A stretch of DNA of 63,031 nucleotides from an uncultured Nitratifractor sp. (GCA_964517485.1 CAZFCZ010000027.1:1-63031); one strand, 5' to 3'. Shown: positions 10,488-62,845, numbered from the stretch's first letter. The notes: generated from the letters alone by a model not told the origin. Numbers and translations: made by a program.

Positions 10488-11780
10488 TTAACTCTTTTTA
10501 AAAAATTTGTTAAAGAAGCCATTTATTACTTTTTGCTTGGCTCTACTAATTGCTAGTGCTCCAGTTGGAACATCAGATGTAATTGTACTTCCTGCTGCTA
10601 TCATTGTATTGTCTTCTATAGTAACTGGTGCTACAAGTTGGCTGTCGCTTCCTACAAATACATTTTTACCAATGTTAGTGCTATACTTTGCCTTGCCATC
10701 GTAGTTGCATGTAATTACACCAGCACCAATGTTTGTACCACTTTGTATATTGCTATCACCCATATAGCTTAAATGCCCAGCTTTTACGCCATTTAGGGTA
10801 GATTTTTTAACCTCTACAAAGTTACCAATGTGTGTATTAGTAATATTAGATTTTGGTCTTATGTGTGCTAGTGGACCAATATCGCTATTTGTAATTATAG
10901 ACTCTTCTATAACGCTGTAAGATTTAATGTGCGAGTTATTAATTTCGCACTCACCCTCTACAATAACGCCACTCTCTAGCGTACACTCTCCACTAAATTT
11001 TGCGCGTGAGTCTATATATATACTGCTAGGGTTGCGCATAGTTATACCACTTTCCATAAGCTCTTGTTTAATTCTATCTTGCATAAAGTCTTCGGCAATA
11101 CTTAGGTGATATTTAGAGTTAACACCCATAAACTCATCTTCGTTTACTACAATTGGTTTTATTGCTCTATTGCTATCTACTGCCATCTTAATTGTGTCTG
11201 TTAGGTAGTACTCTTTTTGTGCATTATTATCATCTATTTTTGGAATTAGGCTATTTAGTAACTCTGCACTAAAACAGTATACACCTGCATTTACGCTTTT
11301 TATTGCCTTTTGCTCTGCATTGCAATCTTTTTGTTCTACAATCTCTTGAACTAAGTTATTTTTTATTACTACTCTACCATATCCTGTTGGGTCTTCTAGC
11401 TCTAGAATTGTCATTGCAATATCTGCATCTATAGATGTGATATTCTCTAGCGTTTGGCTCTTAACTAGTGGCATATCGCCATTTAGAACTAATACCTTAT
11501 TGCTCTTAAACTCTAATCCCTTTAGTGCCCCACCAGTTCCTGGGTAGTTTTGTAAATCTTGCTTTACTATGTTTATGTCTGAATATGAGCTTTCTATTTG
11601 CTCTTTAACTAAATCGAATTTATGACTTAAAATAACTGTAATATCGCTAGTTAGTTTTAAAGACTCGTCTAAAATATGAAAAAGCATAGGCTTTCCAGAG
11701 ATTGAGTGTAAAACTTTTGGTAGGCTAGACTTCATTCTAGTGCCTTTACCAGCGGCTAATATAACAATAGATAGAGACAT
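10488..11780 (-). CDS. glmU: bifunctional UDP-GlcNAc pyrophosphorylase / GlcN-1-P acetyltransferase GlmU
   Basis: 430 aa. N-terminal LAAGKGTRM nucleotidyltransferase motif and a C-terminal left-handed beta-helix of hexapeptide repeats. Confidence 0.95.
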   Translation of the reverse strand: MSLSIVILAAGKGTRMKSSLPKVLHSISGKPMLFHILDESLKLTSDITVILSHKFDLVKEQIESSYSDINIVKQDLQNYPGTGGALKGLEFKSNKVLVLNGDMPLVKSQTLENITSIDADIAMTILELEDPTGYGRVVIKNNLVQEIVEQKDCNAEQKAIKSVNAGVYCFSAELLNSLIPKIDDNNAQKEYYLTDTIKMAVDSNRAIKPIVVNEDEFMGVNSKYHLSIAEDFMQDRIKQELMESGITMRNPSSIYIDSRAKFSGECTLESGVIVEGECEINNSHIKSYSVIEESIITNSDIGPLAHIRPKSNITNTHIGNFVEVKKSTLNGVKAGHLSYMGDSNIQSGTNIGAGVITCNYDGKAKYSTNIGKNVFVGSDSQLVAPVTIEDNTMIAAGSTITSDVPTGALAISRAKQKVINGFFNKFFKKS

Positions 11781-32200: not shown

Positions 32201-32471
32201 GTCTGAACTTGTTTTAAAGCTAAGTGAAGGCAGACCAAATATTGACGATATGATTAAAAATGGCGAAATATCTATTGCAATTAATACAAGTGATAGCACT
32301 GCTACAAAGAGTGATGCTAAAAAGATTAGACAAAGTGTATTAGCAAATTCTGTAGCATATTTTACTACAATAGCAGCAGCTAGAGCAACAGCAAAGGCAA
32401 TAGAAGCACTCAAAAGTAGTGGTGGAGAGCTAGAACCAACAGCTTTACAAGATTATTTAACTAATGGATAA
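29202..32471 (+). CDS. carB: carbamoyl-phosphate synthase large subunit
   Basis: 1089 aa with duplicated ATP-grasp halves ([17 protein letters not shown] / [16 protein letters not shown]) and a C-terminal MGS-like allosteric domain. Confidence 0.97.
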
Positions 32472-32889
32472 AGAGATATTCTTAACAAACACAGATACTA
32501 CTATAGGTTTTATATCTAAGTCTAAAGAGGCTTTAGATATTGCCAAAAGTAGAGCATCTAACAAAGAGTACATTACTGCAATTTCTTCATTTAAAGCACT
32601 AAACAGAAGAGTTCCTAAAGAGTTTAAAAATATCGTTAGACGCTCTAAGAAGACTACATTTATACTAAATTCTAAATTCTCTTTTAGAGTAGCTAAAAAT
32701 AGAAGACACCTACTATTAATTAATAGGCTAAATAGTGCATATACAACCTCTGCAAATAAGAGTAATTTGGCATTTAACTACGATTTTGCACTAGATAAAG
32801 CAAATGTAGTTATCTACCCATTAGATAAGCTAAAAAGTGCTTCTAAAATATATAAACTGGGTAAAACTAGAATTAAAAGGATAAGATAG
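32464..32889 (+). CDS. short YrdC/Sua5-like domain protein
   Basis: 141 aa, overlapping the carB stop by 8 nt. The N-terminal [10 protein letters not shown] resembles the PTDTVYGL motif of the YrdC fold. Very basic and shorter than canonical YrdC. Confidence 0.5.
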
Positions 32890-33263: not shown

Positions 33264-33283
33264 ATTTATTTAGTAAAAAGCGA

Positions 33284-33346
33284 AGATAGCAATAGCTTAA
33301 TTTTTTTAAAAATAGATAAGCTACTATCTAAGTTTTTTCTATTTTT
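33284..33346. terminator. bidirectional intrinsic terminator between the convergent HIT and motB-like genes
   Basis: 13 bp stem with a 3 nt bulge (AGATAG-caa-TAGCTTA ... TAAGCTA-CTATCT). It is followed by TTTTTTCTATTTTTT on the plus strand and by TCGCTTTTT on the minus strand. Confidence 0.6.
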
Positions 33347-33392
33347 TGCTAAAGAATTATTAACTCTTTTTAGTGCTTTAGGCTCGTAGTTT

Positions 33393-34574
33393 TCAATTTT
33401 CATCTAATATTTTCTCTATTTCATATAGTGCATTTTGGTTTTTTAGTCTAAATTTAAACTCTATTCTTCTTGAAGCCTCTTTATCTTCTGTATTGTCTTG
33501 TAGCACTCTATCTAAGTACGATCTACCACTTGCAGTTAGCATTTTTTGTAAATTATACTTTTTAGATACATCTAAAGTTAGCAGATAGCTCATTACGCTA
33601 AGTGCTCTATCTTGAGAAAGCTTTAGATTAAACAAGTAGCCACCATCGCTATCAGTATGGCCTTCTATTACTATAGTATCGATATTTGGTGCAATACTTT
33701 TATTTTCAAAGAGTGTATTTATATATTTTGTAAAATAGCTCTTTAACTGCTCTTTTGCACCAACTTTGAGTTCGCTACTGCCTTTGTCAAAAAGTATATT
33801 TGAGCTAAGTTTTAAAGAGCCATCTTTTGTTACATTTATACTTTTACCAAGACTACTTTTTAACTCTTCTATAATTCTTAGTCTAATGCCAGTTAAATAT
33901 TTAATTTTCTCTCGTTTATCTTGTAGCTCTTTTAAAATTTTTTCGTAACTGCTTTGCTTTTTATCTAAGCTATCAAGTAGAGTTAGCATCTTCTCTTGTG
34001 TAATATTGAGTTCGTTCTCTTTTTTAGTTAGCGAGTTAGAGAGAACTATAACTTTATCTTTATAGCTTTTTAGACTATTTATAGTTTTATTTCTATCTTC
34101 TAGTAGGTTTTGTAAAATTACAACTTTACCATTTAAAGAGTCGATATTTGTATTTTTAGCAAGTAATAGTTGGTTTAGTTTTTTAAGTTCGTTAGATTTT
34201 AATTTTAGTTCATTTTGAGTTAAAATTAAGCTATTCTTTGTGTTATTTAGATCTTTTTCTCTGTTACTTAAAAACGATTTTAATTTTACTATTTCGTCAC
34301 TTTGTAGAGTAATTGTAGCTAGCTGCTCTTGAATAGTTTTATCTTTATTTTTAACTGTAATATTTAATTTTTGTAAGTTATTCTCTTTGGCTTTTAGAGT
34401 TTTTACTGTCTTATCTAGTGTCTCTTTTTTATTTGCTAAATCCTCTCTTAGAGTCATAGATTTAGATACAATTGCTCCAATTAATAGAATAAATACAAAC
34501 AGTAACCCTGCCATTAAATCTGCGTAAGAGATCCAAAAGTTACTGTCTGTATTACTTTTATTATCTTTAAACAC
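33393..34574 (-). CDS. MotB-like protein: N-terminal Asp-containing TM, about 200 aa coiled coil, C-terminal OmpA-like peptidoglycan-binding domain
   Basis: 393 aa with a GTG start 3 nt after the upstream stop. FWISYADLMAGLLFVFILL (Asp19); heptad-rich residues about 40-240; IEGHTDSDGGYLFNLKLSQDRA ... SRRIEF. Confidence 0.8.
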   Translation of the reverse strand: MFKDNKSNTDSNFWISYADLMAGLLFVFILLIGAIVSKSMTLREDLANKKETLDKTVKTLKAKENNLQKLNITVKNKDKTIQEQLATITLQSDEIVKLKSFLSNREKDLNNTKNSLILTQNELKLKSNELKKLNQLLLAKNTNIDSLNGKVVILQNLLEDRNKTINSLKSYKDKVIVLSNSLTKKENELNITQEKMLTLLDSLDKKQSSYEKILKELQDKREKIKYLTGIRLRIIEELKSSLGKSINVTKDGSLKLSSNILFDKGSSELKVGAKEQLKSYFTKYINTLFENKSIAPNIDTIVIEGHTDSDGGYLFNLKLSQDRALSVMSYLLTLDVSKKYNLQKMLTASGRSYLDRVLQDNTEDKEASRRIEFKFRLKNQNALYEIEKILDEN

Positions 34575-34577
34575 TAT

Positions 34578-35636
34578 CTACTCTTTTAAACTTTTTACAC
34601 TAATTACCATAGCTTCTATCTCTTTAACAGCATGAGCTAGCTGGCTATCTACTTTGGTTAATGCACTATCTAGCCCTACATCAAACCTATTTAATAGGTT
34701 ATTTAGCTCATATGCACTCTTGTTAAACTCTTTAATATTTTTCTCTAAATTCTCTTTAGCATTTATAGACTCTTCGCTTTGTCTCATTTTATTGGCAACA
34801 CTCTGTAGTTTACTACTTTGTTTCACTAAAGATGCTTCTATATCTTTTAAGCCACTATTTGTCTTATCTATTATGCTTTCGTAACTTCTTAGGTGCTCTT
34901 TATTTATATCTTTTATAAAGTCTAAATTAAAGGTCTCTTTAAGTGCTCTTATTAGTTCGTTGTCTCTTATTGCTTTTTGGTTGTATTTAAACTTAAGTAG
35001 CTCTCTCTCTGACCAGATATATTTAGAGTAAATATCTTCTAAAGAGCGTGTAAGTTTTTCTATTTTAGATAGACCAACTCTTTCGAAAAATGTCCAAAGC
35101 AAAGATAAAAATATACCAAAAATAGAAGCATAAAATGCTGTACCAACACCAGATAATAGTTTTGAAATTTCGCTATCAAGTTGCTTAGAATTAGTAACGG
35201 TAAAATCTGGCATAGATATTGCAATAGCTATAAAAGTACCTAAAATTCCTAACATTGGAAATACACTAGAGGCAACTTTAGAGTAGTTGTCATTTCTAAT
35301 GCTTTTAAAGTAGTCTTCTAAAAAGTCTCTAATACTTAGAACAGATTTTACTTGCCCTTCTATCTCTAAAGCCGTGCTGTCTAAACTCTTTTCTAGTTCA
35401 TTTTTTGTAATTTTAAACTGTTTTTTAATTCTGCACTCTGCAATATATGCGTTATGGTTAATAAAGAGTATAAAAATAATAAAAATTGAAATTAATATAT
35501 AAAAAGTTTCAGTGTGTATATTTAAAAGGCTCATTATGCTAAAGAAGTTTAAAGCTATAAATACTATAAATATTAAAGGTAGAGTCAACACAACTATAAA
35601 ACGCCCAAAACAGCTACTGTTATATCCATTGTTCAT
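34578..35636 (-). CDS. MotA/TolQ/ExbB family proton-channel protein with about 165 aa C-terminal coiled-coil tail
   Basis: I prefer the second ATG (35636; AAGGA 5 nt upstream). Four TM segments. Channel signature FPMLGILGTFIAIAISM ... GVGTAFYASIFGIFLSLLW. Residues about 187-354 are charged and helical. Confidence 0.78.
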   Translation of the reverse strand: MNNGYNSSCFGRFIVVLTLPLIFIVFIALNFFSIMSLLNIHTETFYILISIFIIFILFINHNAYIAECRIKKQFKITKNELEKSLDSTALEIEGQVKSVLSIRDFLEDYFKSIRNDNYSKVASSVFPMLGILGTFIAIAISMPDFTVTNSKQLDSEISKLLSGVGTAFYASIFGIFLSLLWTFFERVGLSKIEKLTRSLEDIYSKYIWSERELLKFKYNQKAIRDNELIRALKETFNLDFIKDINKEHLRSYESIIDKTNSGLKDIEASLVKQSSKLQSVANKMRQSEESINAKENLEKNIKEFNKSAYELNNLLNRFDVGLDSALTKVDSQLAHAVKEIEAMVISVKSLKE

Positions 35637-35654
35637 AAACATCCTTTTTGAACC

Positions 35655-35663
35655 ATTTTAGCA
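35655..35663 (-). promoter_or_regulatory. candidate extended -10 promoter element (TGCTAAAAT) for the motA-like/motB-like pair
   Basis: The minus strand reads TGCTAAAAT about 18-24 nt upstream of the start codons, inside the 58-64 nt gap after the thioredoxin-like gene. Confidence 0.35.
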
Positions 35664-35700: not shown

Positions 35701-36018
35701 TTACGATAGCATTATTTCGTATGGCCTTTGTATCTTTTGAACAAGTGCATTAACGCTCATAGCTCTGCCTTCTCTTGCAAACTCTTTTCCTGCTAAATAT
35801 ACAATTGTAGTAGGAATAGAGAATACACTAAACTCTGCAGCGATATCTGTATTGTTTTTAGCATCTATAAATATCTGCTCAATTTTTGGAAAATTCTCTT
35901 TAAAACTCTCTGAAATTTTTGGTTTAAGTACATCACAAACATTGCAGTTGTCTCCCCAAGAATATAGCATAACACCATCTTTGGTTTCAATTTTTTCTTT
36001 AATCTCTTGTAGGTTCAT
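35701..36018 (-). CDS. thioredoxin-fold protein with CNVC motif
   Basis: 105 aa. GGAG RBS overlaps the murF stop. WGDNCNVCDVLKP in the position of a Trx CxxC site, and cis-Pro region SIPT. Confidence 0.7.
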   Translation of the reverse strand: MNLQEIKEKIETKDGVMLYSWGDNCNVCDVLKPKISESFKENFPKIEQIFIDAKNNTDIAAEFSVFSIPTTIVYLAGKEFAREGRAMSVNALVQKIQRPYEIMLS

Positions 36019-36026
36019 CTGCTCTC

Positions 36027-37445
36027 CTATATAAAGTTTGGTGCATCGTTTGCAAATAGTATCAAGTCGCCACTTTTTGTATTTTTAGCTAAAAAGCTCT
36101 CTAGACTTGTTTTATCTTTTAGGTGTATTAATTTTTTGCTATTAACGCTATTTTTAAATATATCGTAGTTTAAATCGCCTGTTACTACAACTAAATCAAA
36201 TACTTCGTTTGCTCTTTTTGCAACTTGTTCGTTTAAGTTATCGTCAACTTCTACTAAACCAGGTGTTATAACAACTTTTGTGCCACTATATGTAGATGCT
36301 AAATTAAATGACTCTAGCATGCCATCTATGTTACCATTAAAGCTATCATCTATTATAACTTTGCCGCCAGCTTCGATTTTTTGTAGTCTATGCGCTGTAG
36401 GCTCTATACTTTTAAGTGCCTTTTTAATTGCATCTTCATCTACACCTAACTCTTTTGCAGCTTTTATAGATGCTGCTAAATTTATTGCATTAAAACTTCC
36501 TAAAATATTTGCACAGTAGTTGCTATCTTCTAAGTTAAAGCATAAGCCATCTAGAGTAGAGTTAATATCTTTAATGTCGTGTCCAAATAGCTCTACTTTT
36601 TCATTTGTAGTCTTTACATTAGCGCTAATATGAACCCACGCTTTCTCTAGGCGGTTCGATTTTATAATTTCCATTTTTGTATTTCTAATATTCTCTAGTG
36701 TCTTAAAATACTCTATATGTGCTGGGCCAATAGTACCTACTACACAATATTGTGGGTTAACTAAAGTAGTAATTTCGTAAATATCGCCTTTTTCTCTTGC
36801 ACCCATCTCTACTATATAAACCTCTGTGTTATCTGGTAAATCTTCGTTTATATCTTTTATAATTCCCCCAAGTGTATTTACCGATCTAGGAGTCGCATAT
36901 ACATTGTATTTTGTCTCTAAAAGCTTTGCAATAAAGTTTTTTATACTTGTTTTACCATAACTTGCAGTTACACCAATTACTATTAAATTCTCTTTTTTCT
37001 CTAGCTTATCTTGTGCCATATCTTTATATTTATTAAACATAATTTTCTCTATAGTAATAGAGGTAAACCAAGCTATAAATATTGGTGCTAATAGTAGTGT
37101 TGCATTTGTTAAAAAATATAAAATTGCACTAAAAATAACCAAAAGAGCTAAAAATCTTTTTACTCTGCTAGTTAAAACTAAAGGCTTATCTAACTTTTTA
37201 TACCACAAATATAGTGCAATTGCATAGAGTACTAAAACAATAGGTTGTAAATTATTTAAACCGCTAAAACCTAAAGACTCATATGCCGCAAAAGGAACTA
37301 AAAAGTACATTATATTCCAGTATGGTTTTGTGTGGTGAAATACAACTCTATTTAACTTGTAACTATACCATTGAGCTGTAGTTATAAAGTAGTATCCAAG
37401 TAGCAATACAAAAGTAAAATAGATAAAAAAATTAACAATATTCAT
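36027..37445 (-). CDS. murF: UDP-MurNAc-tripeptide:D-Ala-D-Ala ligase MurF with N-terminal polytopic membrane domain
   Basis: 472 aa. Residues 1-130 form about 4-5 hydrophobic helices. The Mur ligase P-loop GVTASYGKTS lies at about 158-166, followed by the central and C-terminal Mur ligase domains. Confidence 0.85.
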   Translation of the reverse strand: MNIVNFFIYFTFVLLLGYYFITTAQWYSYKLNRVVFHHTKPYWNIMYFLVPFAAYESLGFSGLNNLQPIVLVLYAIALYLWYKKLDKPLVLTSRVKRFLALLVIFSAILYFLTNATLLLAPIFIAWFTSITIEKIMFNKYKDMAQDKLEKKENLIVIGVTASYGKTSIKNFIAKLLETKYNVYATPRSVNTLGGIIKDINEDLPDNTEVYIVEMGAREKGDIYEITTLVNPQYCVVGTIGPAHIEYFKTLENIRNTKMEIIKSNRLEKAWVHISANVKTTNEKVELFGHDIKDINSTLDGLCFNLEDSNYCANILGSFNAINLAASIKAAKELGVDEDAIKKALKSIEPTAHRLQKIEAGGKVIIDDSFNGNIDGMLESFNLASTYSGTKVVITPGLVEVDDNLNEQVAKRANEVFDLVVVTGDLNYDIFKNSVNSKKLIHLKDKTSLESFLAKNTKSGDLILFANDAPNFI

Positions 37446-57368: not shown

Positions 57369-59108
57369 ATGAGAATATTTATATTAGCGTTAGCTGTTTG
57401 TACAACACTAACATTTGCAGATAACAATAGCACAAAAGATAAAGAGTATATATTACATATAGAAGCTTCTAAAAATTTAGACAAAGACTCTATTGCAAAA
57501 GCCATAGGTGAAAAAGAGCAAAATATAATGAATTTTTGGAGCAAAGAGCGTATTATAACAAAAGAGTTTGTAGATAATATAGACTCAACTTTAAAGGGCT
57601 ATTTAGAAAATATTGGCTACTTTAATGCAAAAATAGATTTAAAAGTAAATAATAATAGTGTAGATGTAGCCATTAACGAGGGTAGGGCAATTAGAGTTAA
57701 AGCCATAGATATTAGTAGTAATTTTAAATTAAAGCAAATAATTGATTGGAAAAGAGACGATATATTCTCTAGTGATAGGTTCGATACAATTAAGAGTAAA
57801 ATAAATAAAAAGCTCTTAGAAAATGGCTACTGTAATGCAAAGGTAGATACAAAAGCGTATGTAGATTTAAAGCAATTTAGTGCAAAATTAAATTATAAAA
57901 TCGATAAAGGCGAGCTATGCTTTTTTGGTAAAATTATAATAAAAAAGAGCCCATTAGATATTAAAAAGGAAGTAATTTACTCTAGAGTTAAATATAAAGA
58001 GGGTGAGCTTTTTGATATTAGAAAAATAGAAGAGAGCTATACAAGTCTAAGTGCGCTTAATACCTTTGCTAATGTGCAAATTAAGTACGATTTAGATAAA
58101 AAAAGTAGATATGTAGATAGTACAATTACACTAGATAAAAAAGATAAGCTAAGACGCTATTTAATAGGTTTAGGTGTAGATAGCGAAGTTGGCTTAAGAG
58201 CAAAAATGCTTTGGGAGAAAAGAGACTTTTTAGGTAATGCAAAAAAAATTACAATTAAAAGCAAAATATCTAAAGATAACCAAGATATTAATGTAGAGCT
58301 CTTTACACCATCTTTTATATCTTATAATAATATCTATACAGATTTATATTTAATAGCTGGCTATTCTCTAGAAGAGACCAATGCATATAGAGACAAAGAA
58401 GCCTATATTAAGAGCTATTTAGACTATAATTATAAAAATTTTAATGTAAAATTAGGTTTAGCATTAGAGAATTTAGATATAAAGCTTAAAGATAACTATG
58501 AAGCAAAAATAGGGGGAGTATTTAATATTTTATATCCATATATTACGCTTATTTACGATAATAGAGACTCTAGAATAGACCCTAAAAATGGATATTATGT
58601 TAAACTTTATGGCGAGTATGGGCTATCTTGTGGTAATAGTGGAGTTGAGTATTTTAAATATTTAGTAGAGGGTAGGGCTATAAAAAGCTTTAACGATTTA
58701 ACTCTATCTGCAGTTGGAAAGTTTGGTACAATACACGAGAAAAGCTCGTATCTACCAGCATCTAAACTATTTTATGGAGGAGGGCTCTTTAGCAACAGAG
58801 CTTATGGAAAAGATAAAATTGGTGCAGTAATTAATAGTAAATCTTTTAGCGCACTTGGTGGAAAAAGCTTTTTAAATTTACAACTAGAAGCAAACTATAA
58901 AATACATAAAAGATTTTACGGTGCACTATTTTTTGACTCTACAATGATAAGCAAAGATGAGTATAACTTTAAAGGCAAAAGAGTAGATACTCTTGGCGTA
59001 GGTTTAAGATATAAGTCTCCAATTGGCCCAATTAAGATAGATTTTGGAGTTAATGTTCATAATAGAAAAGATTACGCAATATCTATAATGTTAGGTCAAT
59101 CATTTTGA
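57369..59108 (+). CDS. tamA: Omp85-family outer membrane protein, TamA-like
   Basis: 579 aa. Signal peptide, POTRA-sized N-terminal repeats, C-terminal beta-barrel ending ...ISIMLGQSF (aromatic terminus). Lies directly upstream of tamB. Confidence 0.8.
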   Translation: MRIFILALAVCTTLTFADNNSTKDKEYILHIEASKNLDKDSIAKAIGEKEQNIMNFWSKERIITKEFVDNIDSTLKGYLENIGYFNAKIDLKVNNNSVDVAINEGRAIRVKAIDISSNFKLKQIIDWKRDDIFSSDRFDTIKSKINKKLLENGYCNAKVDTKAYVDLKQFSAKLNYKIDKGELCFFGKIIIKKSPLDIKKEVIYSRVKYKEGELFDIRKIEESYTSLSALNTFANVQIKYDLDKKSRYVDSTITLDKKDKLRRYLIGLGVDSEVGLRAKMLWEKRDFLGNAKKITIKSKISKDNQDINVELFTPSFISYNNIYTDLYLIAGYSLEETNAYRDKEAYIKSYLDYNYKNFNVKLGLALENLDIKLKDNYEAKIGGVFNILYPYITLIYDNRDSRIDPKNGYYVKLYGEYGLSCGNSGVEYFKYLVEGRAIKSFNDLTLSAVGKFGTIHEKSSYLPASKLFYGGGLFSNRAYGKDKIGAVINSKSFSALGGKSFLNLQLEANYKIHKRFYGALFFDSTMISKDEYNFKGKRVDTLGVGLRYKSPIGPIKIDFGVNVHNRKDYAISIMLGQSF

Positions 59109-62100
59109 AAAAATTACTCTATTTTTTAGCATTTATTCTTATTTTACTAGTAGGTTTTTACTCTTTTGTTAGTAGCACATATTTTTTTAATAAATATATT
59201 GCAAAAAATATAAAAGAGTATGGTTTTAATTATGTAAAAGTTAATGGCGCCTTGTTAGATGGCTTTGTTGTAGAAGACCTATCATACAAGGGTAAAAAGT
59301 TATCTTCTAATGTAGAACTTAAAATTAATCCATTTAAATTAATAAGTGGTGTTGTATCGGTAAATAAATTACACTTAATAGGTGTTAAAAAAGATGTTTT
59401 AGAAAATATTGTAGAAGACTTTAAGCCACAAGAAGACACTTCTAGTGCTACACAAATAGATTTAAATTTTGAATTTAAAGATATACTACTAACAATTAAG
59501 CCATTTACAATAGATAAAATTAAAATAGATAAAGCAAACTTAAGTATTGATAAGATTGCATATATTAATAATAAATTTAATGTAGGAAATTTAGAGTACG
59601 AATCTAAAAGTGATATTGCAAATGTATCTTTTAGTGGGCAGTTTAAAAAAAGAGTTTTGGATATTAAGCATATAGATATATCTAGTTTAGACTCAGTTAG
59701 ACTAATGGCAATTATAAAGTCGCTAAAGAGCAGTAAAGAGAGCAGACAAAGTAGCCAATTACTAAATAGTCCATTTACTCCAAAGCTAGTTAAGCTTAAA
59801 GATGCAACTCTAAATTTAAAGCCATTTAAGCTAAAAGAATTAACACTAAAAGATTTAAAACTAAATATTAAAAATGCAAGGTTTAATGTCGAAAAACTCT
59901 CTTTAAATCAGGGTGAGCTAAAGATTAAATATTTAGGTAATGAGTTAGAGCTTAATTTAGATAGTAGCTATAAAAATAAAATATTAAATATAAAAAATAT
60001 ATATTTAGATCTTAAAAAGCCAAATAAAATAGAAAAACTTATTACTTTTAATGACTCTAGCGAAAGTAACTGTACAAGTAATAACAATTTAAATGTTGTT
60101 AAATTAAATAGTATTAATGTTATTGGTGCTAAAGTTAAAGTAAGTAATTATAAATACAATAAAGAGCTAATTAAAACATTAAATATAGGGTTTAAAAATA
60201 GCTCTTTTAGCTGTGAGAATAAAAAAATTGTTTTAAATAATTTAAATTTAAATATAGATTCAACTTTAGGTAATATGGATATAAATGCCACAATTAATAA
60301 AGATTTTATATTTAATAATATTAAAATTGACTCTGGTAATATAGATAAGATAATAGCTACTTTCCCTTCTAGTAATTCTAACACCACTACAAAGCCATTG
60401 CCATTAAATATTCCTGCTAATTTTATTATTAAAAATCTATTAGTTACTGGCAAAAAAGCTACTTTAGGATCATTTATTATTAACGATGCAAAAGTTACTG
60501 CAAGCAATGTTAAGGGTAAAACAGAAGAGCTAAATTTTAGTAGTGGCAAAGTTAAAGCATATGTTACAAGCCCATGGGGAGAAGCAAATTTAGATGGTAA
60601 AATAAAAGACAATAACTACTATGCTAAAGGCTCTTATAAAGTGGCACAATATCTATTAAACCAGTACTCATTGCCATTAAAAGCTAAAAGTTTTAAGCGC
60701 TTAAATGTAGATGGTAGATTTGGCTTTAAATCTTTAGATATTAATATAGATTTAAAGGGTAAAGATATTCTTAAAAGTGTAAAAGATATTACTATTCTTT
60801 CTTCTAAAAATAGACTACAATATAACTATATAACCAACGATACAACTTGGAAAATGAATGCAGATATCAATACCCCATACAGTGGCAATTCTAAATTAAA
60901 TAATACTCTAATATATATTGATAAAAGCGACAAACTAGACTATTACGGTAAGCTTATACCAGCTAAAACTATCTTTAATAACAAAGAGCTACAAGTTCTA
61001 TTTAAAAACTTAAATTTAGATTATAAAGGTAATAGCGATAAGTTAAATGTTAACTTTAATTCATTATTATTAGTTGGTAATTTTTTAACAGACTATGATA
61101 GGGCTAATATATCTATTAACAACAGAAAAAATATAGATTTAAATAGTGTAATACAAATGCCTCAAGATTATAAAAATACTACTATCTCAAAGTTACAAAT
61201 TACAAGTAAATTAGACTTTAAAAAAATCTCTCCTATTAAAGGTAATATAATATTAAACTCTAATCTACTAAATATAGATGGTAAATGGAGCTATAATAAT
61301 ATTTTAAATTCTAGTTTTACTACAAATGTGCCTAAAAGTTCTTATATTTTTAAAAATAACAAAAAGCTAAAATTTAATGCATTTAAAAGCTTTAATTCTA
61401 AACTAACAGCAGATTCAAATGTTCTAAATTTAGAGCTAAAAAATAAACTCTTAGCAATTGGACTAGACTATAACTTTAATACTACTAAGCTAAAGTCTAA
61501 TGTTAAAGCAAAAGCAATAAAATTAGCATTAAATGGAGAGAAAAATAAAATTGATGGTTTAATTACAATTTCTTCTATAAATAGTGCATTACAATCTATA
61601 TATAATATATATAGTTTTGATTCTAAGAGTAGTAATATAAATGGTAAGATAGACGCCAAATTTAAAATATTAAATCTACAAAGTGTTGTATTTAGTTTAA
61701 ATTCTCCATCTATAGTTAGCAAAAGTACTAAAAGTAGTACAAATATTAAGAGTATATATTTAAAAGGTAGCTATAACAATAATAATTTAACTTTAGATAA
61801 TTATAGTTTTAATCTTAACGATTATAAAATTTTCTCTAATAAAGTATCGACTATAAATATAGATAAAAGTAATTTAAATATCAATAAGCTATGGATTAAC
61901 GACTCTTTAATTGCAAAAGGTAACTATAATATAGATAAATCGAGTGGAAATATAAAGTTAAACTCTACTAATTTTACGCTAGATAGCCAAAAAGCAAAAG
62001 TAGCACTTGCAATTGCCTCTACTATTAAACTAAATAAAGACAAAAAAGATATTGCAGGTGTAGTTACTATATTAAATGGTAAAATTAAAAGTACTATTAC

Positions 62101-62845
62101 ACAAAAAAATATAGCTGATAACGAAGATATTGTAATATTGCAAAGAAAAAGAGCAAAAGAGAGCACAGATTTTGCTAAAAACATAAAGCTAAATATTAAA
62201 TTTAAAAACAAAAAAGGTTTAGTATATTCTCAAAATGGTAGCTATTTTAATTTAATACCTAATATGACAATAAAAAAGAGCTACAATAAACTATCTGACT
62301 TTAGAGGTGTAATTAAAGTTGCAAAGGGCAGCTACTATACACTTAATGGTAAAAAGCTAAAAGTATCTAAGGGATTAATTACATTTAAGGGTAAAAGTAG
62401 CTCTCCTAATATTAATATAGAGTTAAAATATATAGGTAAAGAGTTTACAGTATATATTAATATCTCAGGTACACCAACTAGACCAATACTATATTTTAGA
62501 AGTAATCCACAATTAACAAAAGATCAAATATTAGCATATTTACTATTTGATGACTCTAGTGCAATTGGTACTCATACACAAGATGCAATGTTAAATATGG
62601 TTGGTGGTAGTTTAGCTAAATCTCTTTTAGGCTCAATAGGTATTAAGATTGATCACATATCAGTTAAAGAGAATGGTTTTAGTATTGGAAAAAATATAAC
62701 TAAAAATGTTACTGTGTATTATAGCCAAGATAAAGAAAAACCGTCTATTAAAACCAGAATAGATATAACGGACTCTATTCATACCGAATTAGAGGTAGGA
62801 AAAGACAAACAAAGTGCAGATATAATCTTTAGTAAAGAATATTAA
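59105..62845 (+). CDS. tamB: translocation and assembly module protein TamB (DUF490 C-terminus)
   Basis: 1246 aa with ATGA overlap to tamA. N-terminal TM anchor, long N/K/S-rich beta-rich body, conserved C-terminal region (TPTRPILYFRSNPQLTKDQILAYLLF...). Confidence 0.8.
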   Translation: MKKLLYFLAFILILLVGFYSFVSSTYFFNKYIAKNIKEYGFNYVKVNGALLDGFVVEDLSYKGKKLSSNVELKINPFKLISGVVSVNKLHLIGVKKDVLENIVEDFKPQEDTSSATQIDLNFEFKDILLTIKPFTIDKIKIDKANLSIDKIAYINNKFNVGNLEYESKSDIANVSFSGQFKKRVLDIKHIDISSLDSVRLMAIIKSLKSSKESRQSSQLLNSPFTPKLVKLKDATLNLKPFKLKELTLKDLKLNIKNARFNVEKLSLNQGELKIKYLGNELELNLDSSYKNKILNIKNIYLDLKKPNKIEKLITFNDSSESNCTSNNNLNVVKLNSINVIGAKVKVSNYKYNKELIKTLNIGFKNSSFSCENKKIVLNNLNLNIDSTLGNMDINATINKDFIFNNIKIDSGNIDKIIATFPSSNSNTTTKPLPLNIPANFIIKNLLVTGKKATLGSFIINDAKVTASNVKGKTEELNFSSGKVKAYVTSPWGEANLDGKIKDNNYYAKGSYKVAQYLLNQYSLPLKAKSFKRLNVDGRFGFKSLDINIDLKGKDILKSVKDITILSSKNRLQYNYITNDTTWKMNADINTPYSGNSKLNNTLIYIDKSDKLDYYGKLIPAKTIFNNKELQVLFKNLNLDYKGNSDKLNVNFNSLLLVGNFLTDYDRANISINNRKNIDLNSVIQMPQDYKNTTISKLQITSKLDFKKISPIKGNIILNSNLLNIDGKWSYNNILNSSFTTNVPKSSYIFKNNKKLKFNAFKSFNSKLTADSNVLNLELKNKLLAIGLDYNFNTTKLKSNVKAKAIKLALNGEKNKIDGLITISSINSALQSIYNIYSFDSKSSNINGKIDAKFKILNLQSVVFSLNSPSIVSKSTKSSTNIKSIYLKGSYNNNNLTLDNYSFNLNDYKIFSNKVSTINIDKSNLNINKLWINDSLIAKGNYNIDKSSGNIKLNSTNFTLDSQKAKVALAIASTIKLNKDKKDIAGVVTILNGKIKSTITQKNIADNEDIVILQRKRAKESTDFAKNIKLNIKFKNKKGLVYSQNGSYFNLIPNMTIKKSYNKLSDFRGVIKVAKGSYYTLNGKKLKVSKGLITFKGKSSSPNINIELKYIGKEFTVYINISGTPTRPILYFRSNPQLTKDQILAYLLFDDSSAIGTHTQDAMLNMVGGSLAKSLLGSIGIKIDHISVKENGFSIGKNITKNVTVYYSQDKEKPSIKTRIDITDSIHTELEVGKDKQSADIIFSKEY

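What the first reader, a model, noticed from the sequence alone, without database searches (positions are those of the whole stretch)
33284..35663. Stand-alone MotA/ExbB-like + MotB/OmpA-like pair with long coiled-coil extensions on both subunits (Zorya-core-like, no effectors)
Two minus-strand genes are translationally coupled (TAG, 3 nt, GTG). They sit behind their own TGCTAAAAT extended -10 and in front of a bidirectional terminator, so they look like an autonomous two-gene unit.

The A subunit (352 aa) has four TM segments. The last two carry the MotA/TolQ/ExbB channel signature (FPMLGILGTFIAI ... GVGTAFYASIFGIFLSLLW). About 165 aa of charged, heptad-like helix follow.

The B subunit (393 aa) opens with a textbook MotB-type TM (FWISYADLMAGLLFVFILL), where Asp19 sits in the position of the ion-carrying Asp. 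Next come about 200 aa of uninterrupted coiled-coil-like sequence (residues about 40-240). It ends in an OmpA/MotB peptidoglycan-binding domain (IEGHTDSDG...NLKLSQDRA...SRRIEF).

There are no flagellar, Tol-Pal, TonB/ExbD, gliding or ZorC/D/E-type genes anywhere nearby. The neighbours are murF, a thioredoxin-fold gene and a HIT gene. A coiled-coil tail on a MotA-like subunit is the hallmark of ZorA from the Zorya anti-phage system. Here the tail is much shorter, the longest coiled coil is on the periplasmic linker of the B subunit, and effectors are absent.

At roughly 0.15 nm per residue, 200 helical residues would be about 30 nm. That is as long as or longer than a typical periplasm. I do not know a characterised 5:2-type motor (MotAB/PomAB, ExbBD, TolQR, AglRQS, GldLM, ZorAB) with this architecture.
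Basis: partly seen in the sequence, partly recalled or inferred. Interest (0 to 1): 0.7.

Follow-up and report, generated by a model that had tools for sequence, protein, structure and literature searches.

The report
Remodelled Zorya-type membrane motor operon
This is a conserved three-gene operon of sulfur-oxidising Campylobacterales that encodes a relative of the Zorya anti-phage membrane motor with no nuclease partners, a short inner tail, a roughly 28-nm periplasmic stalk and a new tiny partner protein, so a Zorya-type motor may have been put to a different, unknown use.

Summary
The two genes are real. A is 34578..35636(-) and B is 33393..34574(-).

The unit has three genes, not two. A conserved 45-aa ORF, C (33266..33403, -), overlaps the end of B and covers the supposed "bidirectional terminator".

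ZorA and ZorB are the closest solved structures by both sequence and fold. Curated ZorA/ZorB thresholds are not reached, and four defining Zorya features fail:
- The A tail is about 165 aa, not a long tail.
- B carries about 190 residues of continuous heptad repeat between its TM helix and its peptidoglycan-binding domain. Across the family this stalk changes length only in 7-residue steps.
- No ZorC/D/E/F/G gene is present, either here or in about 110 related loci.
- The setting is core chromosome, next to mreBC, murF, ykuD and murJ.

The module is single-copy. It occurs in Sulfurovaceae (a flagella-less family), Sulfurimonas and Sulfurospirillum. A small sister clade keeps a long tail, a linker-less B and a weakly ZorC-like gene, and sits in defence islands.

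Best reading: a Zorya-related 5:2 ion motor, probably attached to peptidoglycan all the time, whose output goes through a short tail and the membrane-peripheral protein C. A housekeeping envelope role is somewhat more likely than defence. This is a new variant of a known kind, and I found no description of it in the searched literature.

The parts
35655..35663 (-). Extended -10-like element TGCTAAAAT upstream of A
   Evidence: Read directly. Function is untested. It was not listed by the sigma-70 scan, which requires a -35 element. The Trx-to-A gap is 47-80 nt in the window's clade, so read-through from ykuD-hydrolase-murF-trx is also possible.
34578..35636 (-). Gene A: ZorA-like MotA/ExbB-family channel subunit. 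352 aa from the second ATG. The ORF from 35642 gives 354 aa, and that numbering is used in the residue ranges below.
   Evidence: ORF. Pfam MotA_ExbB scores 35 bits against a 22.9 cut-off. PADLOC ZorA1 scores 61 bits. PDB ZorA gives E=5e-10. The top six Foldseek hits are ZorA chains. The AlphaFold2 model has mean pLDDT 78. More than 2,300 homologues were found.
35037..35297 (-). A residues 116-202: channel-forming TM3/TM4 with the signature FPMLGILGTF...GVGTAFYASIFG
   Evidence: This is the span of the Pfam match. The motif is invariant in 40 sequences and in the distant relatives.
34584..34895 (-). A residues 250-353: a single 104-residue heptad-repeat helix forming the distal cytoplasmic tail, about 15 nm long if straight
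   Evidence: The AlphaFold2 model gives helix 250-353. Heptad periodicity gives z=15.7. Precomputed Pfam labels this region 'ZorA-like_t1' as a weak hit.
33393..34574 (-). Gene B: ZorB-like subunit of 393 aa with a GTG start, 3 nt after the A stop codon
   Evidence: ORF and junction. PADLOC ZorB1 scores 188 bits in two stretches. PDB ZorB gives 3e-21. B follows A in every related locus that has room for it.
34464..34538 (-). B residues 13-37: TM helix FWISYADLMAGLLFVFILLIGAI. Asp19 is the codon at 34518..34520.
   Evidence: The helix is invariant in 35 sequences. It is near-invariant (the third residue is I, L or V in a few members) in more than 200 family members, including the long-tailed relatives. 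Asp19 aligns with ZorB Asp26.
33891..34463 (-). B residues 38-228: periplasmic coiled-coil stalk. The proximal part varies in length. The distal 94/98-residue module has a fixed length and contains the conserved motifs LNQLLL, VVILQNLL and VIVLSNSLT.
   Evidence: Heptad periodicity gives z=15.8. Relatives keep a single register throughout. TM-to-LNQLL distances of 95-257 aa are congruent to 4 mod 7 in 152 of 161 sequences. LNQLL-to-LTG is 98 aa in 151 of 161. The AlphaFold2 model gives helix 13-140 continuous with the TM helix, pLDDT below 50 for 140-191, and helix 193-245. Relative to linker-less relatives the insertion spans about residues 56-205.
33396..33890 (-). B residues 229-393: OmpA/ZorB-type peptidoglycan-binding domain
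   Evidence: Pfam OmpA scores 44.8 bits against a 27.2 cut-off. Asn316, Leu319 and Arg323 are invariant. They align with ZorB Asn152, Leu155 and Arg159, which are required for peptidoglycan binding and defence.
33266..33403 (-). Gene C: 45-aa protein whose ATG overlaps the last 11 nt of B. It has an N-terminal F/Y-E-P-K-x-L-K-x-A motif, a charged middle and a basic amphipathic C-terminus (SIFKKIKLLLSSLFTK).
   Evidence: ORF. It is present in 69 of 69 Sulfurovaceae loci, with an offset of -10 in 46 of them. It is present in about 98 of 111 distinct loci family-wide, including S. gotlandica and Sulfurospirillum. The C-terminal 16 aa carry net charge +3.5 and have hydrophobic moment 0.62 against 0.46 for shuffles. 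There is no TM segment and no Pfam family.
33284..33329 (.).
   Evidence: Fold: the region scores z=-0.42 against shuffles. It was not called by the terminator scan. The stop codons of HIT (33263, +) and C (33266, -) are 2 nt apart.

Best explanation
A-B-C is one operon. It encodes a remodelled member of the ZorAB branch of the MotA/ExbB-MotB family of 5:2 ion-driven motors.

INFERRED MECHANISM
- Two B subunits form the axle. Their TM helices carry the ion-binding Asp19 and continue directly into a parallel coiled-coil stalk of about 190 residues (about 28 nm). The stalk ends in a ZorB-type peptidoglycan-binding domain.
- In canonical ZorB that domain sits directly on the membrane and can reach the wall only when the envelope is perturbed. 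Here the stalk is long enough to reach peptidoglycan all the time. The complex is therefore probably anchored constitutively rather than conditionally.
- Five A subunits conduct ions past Asp19 and turn around B.
- Their C-terminal 104-residue helices would form a bundle of about 15 nm in the cytoplasm.
- C is held on the inner face of the membrane by its basic amphipathic C-terminus. It is the likely cytoplasmic partner or regulator, acting through its conserved N-terminal FEPKxLKxA motif.

WHAT IS SHOWN AND WHAT IS INFERRED
- Shown: homology, domain order, conservation of the Asp and of the peptidoglycan-binding residues, heptad-stepped stalk length, presence of C, absence of effectors, and chromosomal setting.
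- Inferred: 5:2 stoichiometry, rotation, constitutive anchoring and C binding.

FUNCTIONAL COMMITMENT
It is not a canonical Zorya defence system. It is a lineage-fixed envelope-associated motor of sulfur-oxidising Campylobacterales, more likely serving a housekeeping or stress-sensing role at the inner membrane-peptidoglycan interface than nuclease-based phage defence. I put about 0.85 on the structural reading and about 0.45 on the non-defence role.
For: HOMOLOGY
- Pfam MotA_ExbB and OmpA both score above threshold.
- The best PDB sequence hits are ZorB at 3e-21 and ZorA at 5e-10. All six significant Foldseek hits are ZorA chains. PADLOC ZorB1 scores 188 bits.

FUNCTIONAL RESIDUES
- Asp19 and the whole B TM helix are invariant. 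Asn316, Leu319 and Arg323 are invariant and align with the ZorB peptidoglycan-binding residues.

STALK
- Heptad periodicity gives z=15.8, and relatives keep a single register.
- Stalk length changes only in 7-residue steps, in 152 of 161 sequences.
- The TM helix is continuous with the stalk in the AlphaFold2 model.
- ZorB has no linker, and the inner membrane-peptidoglycan distance is about 9 nm in E. coli.

GENE C
- It is conserved across three families and has an amphipathic basic C-terminus.

NO FOURTH PARTNER
- No flank gene family occurs in more than 13 of 73 loci.

CORE-GENOME BEHAVIOUR
- There is one locus per genome among the 80 best loci, out of 320 species genomes with a relative.
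- Synteny is stable within each clade.
- A and B diverge at about the rate of murF: 57-76% identity against 71-79%.
- The module is present in the complete genomes of N. salsuginis, S. gotlandica and Sulfurospirillum sp. 1307.
- No full-length copy occurs on plasmids or phages.

ENVELOPE NEIGHBOURHOOD
- mreBC lies immediately upstream in 11 loci. murF/ykuD occur in 9-10 loci and mltG in 6-7. The window itself carries all of mreBC, murF, ykuD and murJ.
Against: - The nearest characterised relatives are all anti-phage systems.
- The sister clade (L088, L091) lies in defence islands, with a SNF2 helicase, a weakly ZorC-like gene and a type III R-M system.
- One Sulfurovum locus (L003) lies beside LmuB and a type I R-M system.
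- Downstream flanks vary between loci, and L006 has an insertion next to A.
- Adjacency to cell-wall genes largely reflects one ancestral chromosomal position, so it is weak evidence for a functional link.
- I could not count how many Sulfurovaceae genomes lack the module, so 'fixed in the lineage' is an inference.
- A 28-nm rod is longer than the inner membrane-peptidoglycan gap measured in E. coli, so its geometry in the cell is unknown.
- The AlphaFold2 model of B is poor for residues 140-191, so a fold-back cannot be excluded.
- No experiment bears on stoichiometry, rotation or the partner of C.
Confidence: 0.5

Rival explanations
1. It is a minimal, effector-less Zorya-type anti-phage system. 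The motor senses envelope damage during phage infection. It then protects either by itself, through uncontrolled ion flux that collapses membrane potential (abortive infection), or by signalling through the short tail and C to effectors encoded elsewhere in the genome.
For: - The closest homologues are ZorA and ZorB.
- It forms one clade (99/100) with long-tailed relatives that sit in defence islands next to a weakly ZorC-like gene, a SNF2 helicase and R-M genes.
- L003 lies next to LmuB and a type I R-M system.
- Downstream flanks are variable, and L006 has an insertion beside A.
- Stalk length varies between close relatives, which could reflect an arms race.
Against: - In Zorya every gene is required and all tail truncations abolish defence. 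Here the tail is short and no effector is linked in about 110 loci.
- The long stalk removes the 'too short to reach peptidoglycan' geometry on which the proposed Zorya sensing model rests.
- The module is single-copy, syntenic within clades and diverges like a housekeeping gene.
- It is present in three families, including cultured type strains.
- It is absent from plasmids and phages.
Confidence: 0.3
2. It is an alternative or accessory flagellar stator (a MotAB paralogue), adapted to the wide periplasm and large periplasmic scaffolds of Campylobacterota motors.
For: - It belongs to the MotA/MotB superfamily, and Pfam MotB_plug gives a sub-threshold hit.
- In S. gotlandica it lies 4 kb from motA-motB-fliP.
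Against: - The module is conserved in 69 of 69 sampled loci of Sulfurovaceae, a family described as non-motile that has lost flagella (PMC5401914).
- S. gotlandica has its own canonical motAB genes, 254 and 258 aa.
- PDB MotB matches score only about 1e-4, against 3e-21 for ZorB.
- The MotB_plug hit is below threshold and covers the TM helix only.
- No flagellar genes are present in the window.
Confidence: 0.03
3. It is a Tol-Pal/TonB-like force transducer. The motor uses ion flow to move or twist the B stalk, which reaches through the periplasm to act on peptidoglycan or the outer membrane. B would play the role of TolA/TonB or GldM rather than that of a fixed anchor. The A ring would be held still, perhaps by C and the membrane.
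For: - A rigid stalk of about 28 nm whose heptad phase is preserved is what a torque- or force-transmitting shaft would need.
- The neighbours are envelope-biogenesis genes.
- Known 5:2 motors use a long periplasmic element to reach the outer layers. ExbBD-TonB, TolQR-TolA and GldLM do this. That point rests on established knowledge and on the reviews listed.
Against: - B ends in a peptidoglycan-binding domain with all binding residues intact. That argues for a fixed anchor rather than a moving tip.
- No outer-membrane partner gene is linked.
- The fold of B is OmpA-like, not ExbD/TolR-like.
Confidence: 0.12

Closest known systems
Zorya type I ZorA-ZorB motor (E. coli 8QYD; Shewanella 8VVN)
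   Same: - It is the best sequence and fold match for both subunits.
- The B TM motif FWISYADLM is near-identical, and the ion-binding Asp is conserved.
- The peptidoglycan-binding residues Asn, Leu and Arg are conserved.
- The A subunit has a C-terminal helical tail after the last TM helix.
   Different: - The tail is about 165 aa (one 104-residue helix, about 15 nm), against about 500 aa (70 nm).
- A has an extra N-terminal TM helix.
- B has a coiled coil of about 190 residues where ZorB has no linker.
- No zorC or zorD gene is present. A 45-aa gene C follows B instead.
- The setting is core chromosome, not a defence island.
- NCBIfam ZorA/ZorB scores are far below the curated cut-offs: 41.6 against 100, and 63 against 400.
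Uncharacterised long-tailed relatives in metagenome loci L088, L090 and L091 (Zorya-I-like)
   Same: - They fall in the same clade to the exclusion of canonical Zorya I and II (99/100).
- The B TM motif is identical.
- A shares the N-terminal architecture.
- B is 47-50% identical outside the insert.
   Different: - A is 582-696 aa.
- B is 219-252 aa and has no coiled coil.
- It is followed by a 415-420-aa protein with only a weak ZorC EH-signature hit (E 7e-5 and 4e-4, no Pfam family).
- It is flanked by a SNF2 helicase or a type III R-M system.
- Which of the two layouts is ancestral is unresolved.
Zorya type II ZorAB (Sulfuricurvum kujiense 8VVI; E. coli zorA2B2E)
   Same: - It belongs to the same superfamily.
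- It also occurs in Campylobacterota.
- PADLOC ZorA2 and ZorB2 models hit A and B.
   Different: - The matches are weaker than those to type I.
- ZorE, an HNH nuclease, follows zorB2, and there is no equivalent here.
- ZorB2 has no stalk.
Flagellar stator MotAB/PomAB
   Same: - It is a predicted 5:2 ion motor.
- B has a single TM helix with an Asp, followed by an OmpA-like peptidoglycan-binding domain.
- A has four TM helices, as MotA does.
   Different: - There is no plug helix and no large cytoplasmic torque-generating loop.
- Similarity is much weaker (MotB about 1e-4).
- The module is kept in a flagella-less family.
ExbBD-TonB, TolQR-TolA and GldLM
   Same: - These are 5:2-type motors coupled to a long periplasm-spanning element.
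- ExbB and TolQ are the next structural matches for A.
   Different: - In those systems the spanning element is a separate protein (TonB, TolA) or a multi-domain B subunit that does not bind peptidoglycan (GldM).
- Here it is a coiled coil fused between the TM helix and a peptidoglycan-binding domain.
- B is OmpA-like, not ExbD/TolR-like.
NCBIfam PRK09039-type 'peptidoglycan-binding protein' (NF006542 to NF006545)
   Same: It has the same end-to-end layout: an N-terminal TM helix, a long helical region and an OmpA domain. B aligns over residues 7-375 with positions 10-347 of the 350-position profile.
   Different: - Scores are far below the cut-off (48 bits against 305).
- This family is itself uncharacterised as far as I know.
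- I did not test whether it pairs with a MotA-like gene.

Membership tests
MotA/TolQ/ExbB + MotB-type 5:2 ion-motor superfamily | The A subunit matches the MotA/TolQ/ExbB channel domain above the curated threshold. | tested here: met
   PF01618 scores 35 bits against a 22.9 cut-off over residues 116-202. The motif is invariant in the family.
MotA/TolQ/ExbB + MotB-type 5:2 ion-motor superfamily | The B subunit has a single N-terminal TM helix carrying a conserved acidic residue. | tested here: met
   Asp19 is invariant in 35 sequences, is present in more than 200 relatives, and aligns with ZorB Asp26.
MotA/TolQ/ExbB + MotB-type 5:2 ion-motor superfamily | A5:B2 stoichiometry and ion-driven rotation. 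| not testable with these tools
   Only monomer models could be made.
Zorya anti-phage system (types I-III) | ZorA and ZorB reach the curated family thresholds. | tested here: not met
   The NCBIfam best ZorA score is 41.6 bits against a cut-off of 100. ZorB1 scores 63 bits against 400. They are nevertheless the nearest families.
Zorya anti-phage system (types I-III) | A long ZorA cytoplasmic tail, which is present in all subtypes and required for defence. | tested here: not met
   The tail is about 165 aa, of which 104 form one heptad helix. In E. coli the tail is about 500 aa (70 nm), and truncations abolish defence.
Zorya anti-phage system (types I-III) | The ZorB peptidoglycan-binding domain is fused to the TM helix without a linker. 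| tested here: not met
   There is a heptad-repeat insert of about 150-190 residues. ZorB is described as linker-less.
Zorya anti-phage system (types I-III) | Adjacent effector genes (zorC+zorD, zorE, or zorF+zorG). | tested here: not met
   PADLOC and Pfam find none in the window. No flank family recurs in 73 loci. The gene after B is the 45-aa C.
Zorya anti-phage system (types I-III) | Peptidoglycan-binding residues of ZorB (Tyr151, Asn152, Leu155, Arg159). | tested here: met
   Asn316, Leu319 and Arg323 are invariant. Position 315 is Phe in the window and Tyr in most relatives (with the residue list).
Zorya anti-phage system (types I-III) | Protection against phage. | not testable with these tools
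Flagellar stator MotAB | A MotB plug helix, and association with flagellar genes or motile hosts. | tested here: not met
   MotB_plug scores 17.2 bits against a cut-off of 24, and only over the TM helix. The hosts are flagella-less Sulfurovaceae. Separate motAB genes exist in S. gotlandica.
ExbBD / TolQR | The B subunit has the ExbD/TolR fold, with TonB/TolA and Pal/TolB partners. | tested here: not met
   B is OmpA-like. No such partner genes are present in the window.
NCBIfam PRK09039 peptidoglycan-binding protein | The score reaches the curated cut-off. | tested here: not met
   48 bits against 305 (NF006543) and 49.5 bits against 388 (NF006542). Only the architecture is shared.

The most novel reading that the evidence does not exclude
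A Zorya-type ion-driven rotary motor has been domesticated, or Zorya was derived from such a motor, for a non-immune cell-envelope function in sulfur-oxidising Campylobacterales. It would be permanently tethered to peptidoglycan through a heptad-phased stalk of about 28 nm. It would work with a previously unrecognised 45-70-aa membrane-peripheral subunit, in functional association with the MreBC cell-wall elongation machinery.
Probability: 0.35. Interest if true: 0.8.

Novelty: new variant of a known kind. Interest (0 to 1): 0.62.

Why it matters
- Zorya is the only characterised 5:2 motor whose output is a cytoplasmic signal. How its tail and its peptidoglycan anchor encode 'infection' is still debated.
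- This family is a natural experiment. The anchor is moved about 28 nm away, the tail is cut to about a fifth of its length, and the nucleases are replaced by one tiny protein. The ion path and the peptidoglycan-binding site remain invariant.
- If the module is housekeeping, ZorAB-type motors have uses beyond immunity. That would suggest where Zorya came from.
- If the module is defensive, it defines a minimal Zorya that works without nucleases.
- Either way, the strictly heptad-stepped stalk gives a direct handle for testing whether angular register between the TM axle and the peptidoglycan anchor matters in 5:2 motors.
- Gene C is missed by gene callers in some genomes, for example Sulfurospirillum sp. 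1307.

Tried and rejected
- **Graded trade-off between A-tail and B-linker length.** None was found (Spearman -0.15, p=0.16). The pattern is a dichotomy.
- **Fold-back hinge in B at residues 140-191.** The low pLDDT there suggested it. The heptad register is continuous across this region in relatives, so a hinge is not supported. It is not excluded either.
- **Functional terminator after B.** No fold-energy signal and no scan hit.
- **A family for C.** Pfam finds none. C is too short for BLAST at 1e-5, so it was found by position.
- **Polarity of evolution between the long-tailed and A-B-C layouts.** The NJ tree does not resolve it: A-B-C monophyly gets 14/100.
- **Correlation of A/B divergence with MurF divergence.** The direction is as expected, but n=7 and it is not significant.
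- **Literature.** Searches for 'ZorA-like' and related terms and for S. gotlandica locus tags returned nothing. The MotAB-evolution paper excluded ZorAB.
- **Outgroup problem.** zorB on plasmid pPAG5 is frameshifted and had to be spliced by hand for use as an outgroup.
- **B coiled-coil Pfam hits.** CRWN_N, HmpF and CCDC39 are generic coiled-coil matches and carry no functional information.

Full report
**1. What is in the sequence**

Two adjacent minus-strand ORFs occupy 33393..35642.

Homologues of A begin MNNGYN. The true start is therefore the second ATG (35636), 5 nt after an AAGGA, and the protein is 352 aa. TGCTAAAAT lies at 35663..35655, but its activity is untested.

A new feature lies downstream of B. 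A 45-aa ORF (33266..33403, -) starts 11 nt before the B stop codon. Its own stop is 2 nt from the stop of the convergent HIT gene. The region folds no better than shuffled sequence (z=-0.42), and the terminator scan reports nothing there.

**2. Subunit A**

- Pfam MotA_ExbB scores above threshold, 35 bits against 22.9.
- FPMLGILGTF...GTAFYAS is invariant in 40 sequences that go down to 41% identity. The core positions of the motif remain invariant in more distant relatives.
- The AlphaFold2 model (mean pLDDT 78) shows:
  - two N-terminal membrane helices (11-33, 44-61);
  - a small cytoplasmic helix/β-hairpin domain;
  - TM3 (118-142) and a long TM4 helix (152-208);
  - helix 212-239, a low-confidence break, and one continuous helix from 250 to 353.
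- Heptad periodicity is very strong in 250-353 (z=15.7) and absent in 186-239. The "165 aa of heptad-like helix" is really about 104 residues, or about 15 nm.
- All six significant Foldseek hits against PDB are ZorA chains (E from 2e-5 to 6e-4). ExbB and TolQ follow at non-significant E-values.
- A profile search of PDB sequences gives ZorA 8QYD at 5e-10.
- NCBIfam ZorA models are hit far below their cut-offs.

**3. Subunit B**

- NFWISYADLMAGLLFVFILL is invariant in 35 sequences. The motif FW[ILV]SYADLMAGL recurs in the more than 200 relatives fetched.
- Asp19 aligns with Asp26 of E. coli ZorB, the proton-binding residue.
- The C-terminal OmpA domain scores above the Pfam threshold.
- Asn316, Leu319 and Arg323 are invariant. 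They align with ZorB Asn152, Leu155 and Arg159, whose mutation abolishes peptidoglycan binding and defence.
- ZorB is the best PDB match (3e-21). Campylobacter MotB reaches only about 1e-4.
- PADLOC ZorB1 matches at 188 bits in two pieces, the TM helix and the peptidoglycan-binding domain. Everything between those pieces is an insertion. Compared with the linker-less relatives, the insertion spans about residues 56-205.

**4. The stalk**

- Heptad periodicity over residues 40-228 gives z=15.8.
- In relatives that lack a 4-residue deletion specific to the window's clade, one register runs unbroken from the membrane exit to the "LTG" that opens the peptidoglycan-binding domain.
- Across 161 B sequences, the distance from the TM motif to a conserved "LNQLL" motif ranges from 95 to 257 residues. 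It is congruent to 4 mod 7 in 152 of them.
- The distal module (LNQLL to LTG) is 98 residues in 151 of 161, and 94 in the window's clade.
- So B is a TM helix, then a variable stalk that changes only by whole heptads, then a fixed-length conserved module, then the peptidoglycan-binding domain.
- Whole-heptad indels mean that the angular register between the TM axle and the peptidoglycan anchor is under selection, while absolute length is not.
- AlphaFold2 predicts the TM helix continuing as one helix to residue 140. It gives low confidence for 140-191, then helix 193-245.
- As a straight parallel dimer, about 190 residues would span about 28 nm. A fold-back cannot be excluded with monomer models.

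**5. The third gene, C**

- A small ORF of 42-72 aa follows B in 69 of 69 Sulfurovaceae loci with enough downstream DNA. Its ATG overlaps the B end at offset -10 in 46 of them.
- With relaxed criteria and by eye, it is present in about 98 of 111 distinct coiled-coil-type loci.
- It is present in Sulfurimonas gotlandica, where it is called as a 54-aa gene with a GTG start, and in Sulfurospirillum sp. 1307, where it is not called.
- Three features are conserved:
  - an N-terminal [SN][ND]-F-E-P-K-x-L-K-x-A motif;
  - a variable charged middle;
  - a C-terminal basic amphipathic segment (net charge +3.5, hydrophobic moment 0.62 against 0.46 for shuffles, higher in 58 of 66).
- There is no TM segment and no Pfam family.
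- The C-terminus resembles the membrane-targeting helices of MinD and FtsA. That comparison rests on my own knowledge.
- I infer that C is a cytoplasmic protein held on the inner leaflet of the membrane.

**6. Distribution and context**

- Each of A and B has more than 2,300 homologues at 90% clustering.
- An exhaustive search finds 51 clusters (50% identity) at E≤1e-30. After a gap come generic ZorA-length proteins at about 1e-10.
- A strict-motif scan of species-representative genomes finds 320 genomes. The best 80 are nearly all Sulfurovaceae, with one locus per genome.
- Divergent orthologues occur in Sulfurimonas and Sulfurospirillum, including complete genomes.
- No flank gene family occurs in more than 13 of 73 loci, so there is no fourth universal partner.
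- Synteny is clade-specific and stable:
  - The window's clade always has RuvA, HI0933-like, YkuD, hydrolase, MurF and Trx leading into A-B-C.
  - A Sulfurovum group has QueH, FabZ, LpxA, ClpX, MreB and MreC leading into A-B-C, with gaps of -4 to 57 nt.
  - Another group has MltG/YceG downstream.
- The window carries the same QueH...MreB-MreC block at 23.5-29.2 kb. That block is separated from the inverted C-B-A only by carB, a 141-aa ORF and HIT. MurJ lies at 41.3 kb.
- A and B diverge at about the rate of MurF.
- No full-length copy is found on plasmids or phages.
- Sulfurovaceae lack flagella (PMC5401914), and S. gotlandica has separate motAB genes. This all but rules out the flagellar-stator reading.

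**7. Relation to Zorya**

- Metagenome loci close to a 697-aa relative (L088, L090, L091) have A of 582-696 aa and B of 219-252 aa without a stalk. Their B carries the identical TM motif and matches ZorB1 at 198 bits in one piece.
- In L088 and L091, B is followed by a 415-420-aa protein with a weak ZorC EH-signature hit (E 7e-5 and 4e-4, no Pfam family). The loci are flanked by a SNF2/DrmD/ZorD-like helicase or a type III R-M system.
- An NJ tree was built on the concatenated A core, B TM helix and B peptidoglycan-binding domain (324 columns, 127 taxa). Both layouts fall together in one clade apart from canonical Zorya I and II (99/100). The long-tailed trio is monophyletic (100/100).
- The tree does not resolve whether the A-B-C type is monophyletic (14/100), so the direction of change is open.
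- The Zorya structure paper states three things:
  - long tails occur in all subtypes, and all truncations abolish defence;
  - every gene is required;
  - ZorB has no linker.
- On each of these defining points the window's module differs.

**8. Interpretation**

The structural reading is well supported: a ZorAB-branch 5:2 motor with an intact ion path and an intact peptidoglycan site.

The proposed Zorya model has a linker-less ZorB that engages peptidoglycan only when the envelope is perturbed. The stalk here is much longer than the roughly 9-nm inner membrane-peptidoglycan gap quoted for E. coli. The simplest inference is constitutive anchoring, which means a motor that can run all the time rather than a conditional sensor.

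Together with single-copy, syntenic, housekeeping-like evolution beside cell-wall genes, this tips me towards a non-defence envelope role (about 0.45). An effector-less defence role is less likely (about 0.3). A TonB/TolA-like force transducer is a further variant (about 0.12).

The neighbourhood argument is weak, because it mostly reflects one ancestral chromosomal position. I found no description of this architecture, or of gene C, in the searched literature.

Noticed in passing
window 34578..35642 (-), A residues 11, 63-65 and 70; Trx gene 35701..36018 (-): A has a near-invariant Cys11, an invariant His63-Asn64-Ala65 and an invariant Cys70 at the predicted cytoplasmic face of the membrane. 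A thioredoxin gene neighbours the module in two different synteny groups: upstream in the window's clade and downstream in the N. salsuginis group. This could be a metal or redox site. ZorA has a Ca2+ site in the equivalent domain.
   Followed up: no
window 36027..37445 (-): The MurF-like ORF is 472 aa. The Mur ligase middle domain covers only residues 159-329, and the roughly 140-aa N-terminus is very hydrophobic and looks like several membrane helices.
   Followed up: no
window 32464..32889 (+): A 141-aa ORF between carB and the HIT gene has no Pfam match. An ORF of the same family (cluster c32) recurs between CarB and HIT in L017, L018, L037 and L040.
   Followed up: partly
L006:5192-7869: In a relative with 71% identity, an AAA_14 ATPase gene and an unknown gene of about 500 aa are inserted between Trx and A. 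This position can therefore accept cargo.
   Followed up: no
L088:4467-14596 and L091:4713-11061: These are defence-island loci with a long-tailed relative of A. The gene order is SNF2/DrmD/ZorD-like helicase or type III restriction enzyme, then A (582-695 aa), then a linker-less ZorB-like B, then a protein with a weak ZorC EH-signature hit, then PDC-S05/ORF6N, then a type III methylase. This looks like an undescribed Zorya-I-like subtype.
   Followed up: partly
L113, L117, L128, L136, L099, L167 and seven further loci: A subgroup of 13 of the 111 distinct loci has no C-like ORF after B. Most members have A of about 350-365 aa and B of 330-494 aa, with a stalk of up to about 312 residues from the TM motif to LTG.
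   Followed up: partly
L170: about 10728-11490 (P. aeruginosa plasmid pPAG5, NZ_CP045003.1): The zorB gene of this annotated Zorya I locus is frameshifted, and it is missing from the gene table.
   Followed up: partly
L169:11343-11504 (Sulfurospirillum sp. 1307, CP176011.1): The C-like 53-aa ORF after B is not among the called genes of this complete genome. Gene C is easily missed by annotation.
   Followed up: yes
window 57369..62845 (+) and 60001..62000: A TamA-like (Omp85/POTRA) gene and a TamB-like gene of 1246 aa lie at the end of the window. The TamB-like gene includes the window's lowest-GC stretch, 23.5%.
   Followed up: no
L168:14555-16095 (Sulfurimonas gotlandica): Canonical flagellar motA-motB-fliP genes lie about 3 kb from the A-B-C module, on the opposite strand.
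   Followed up: partly
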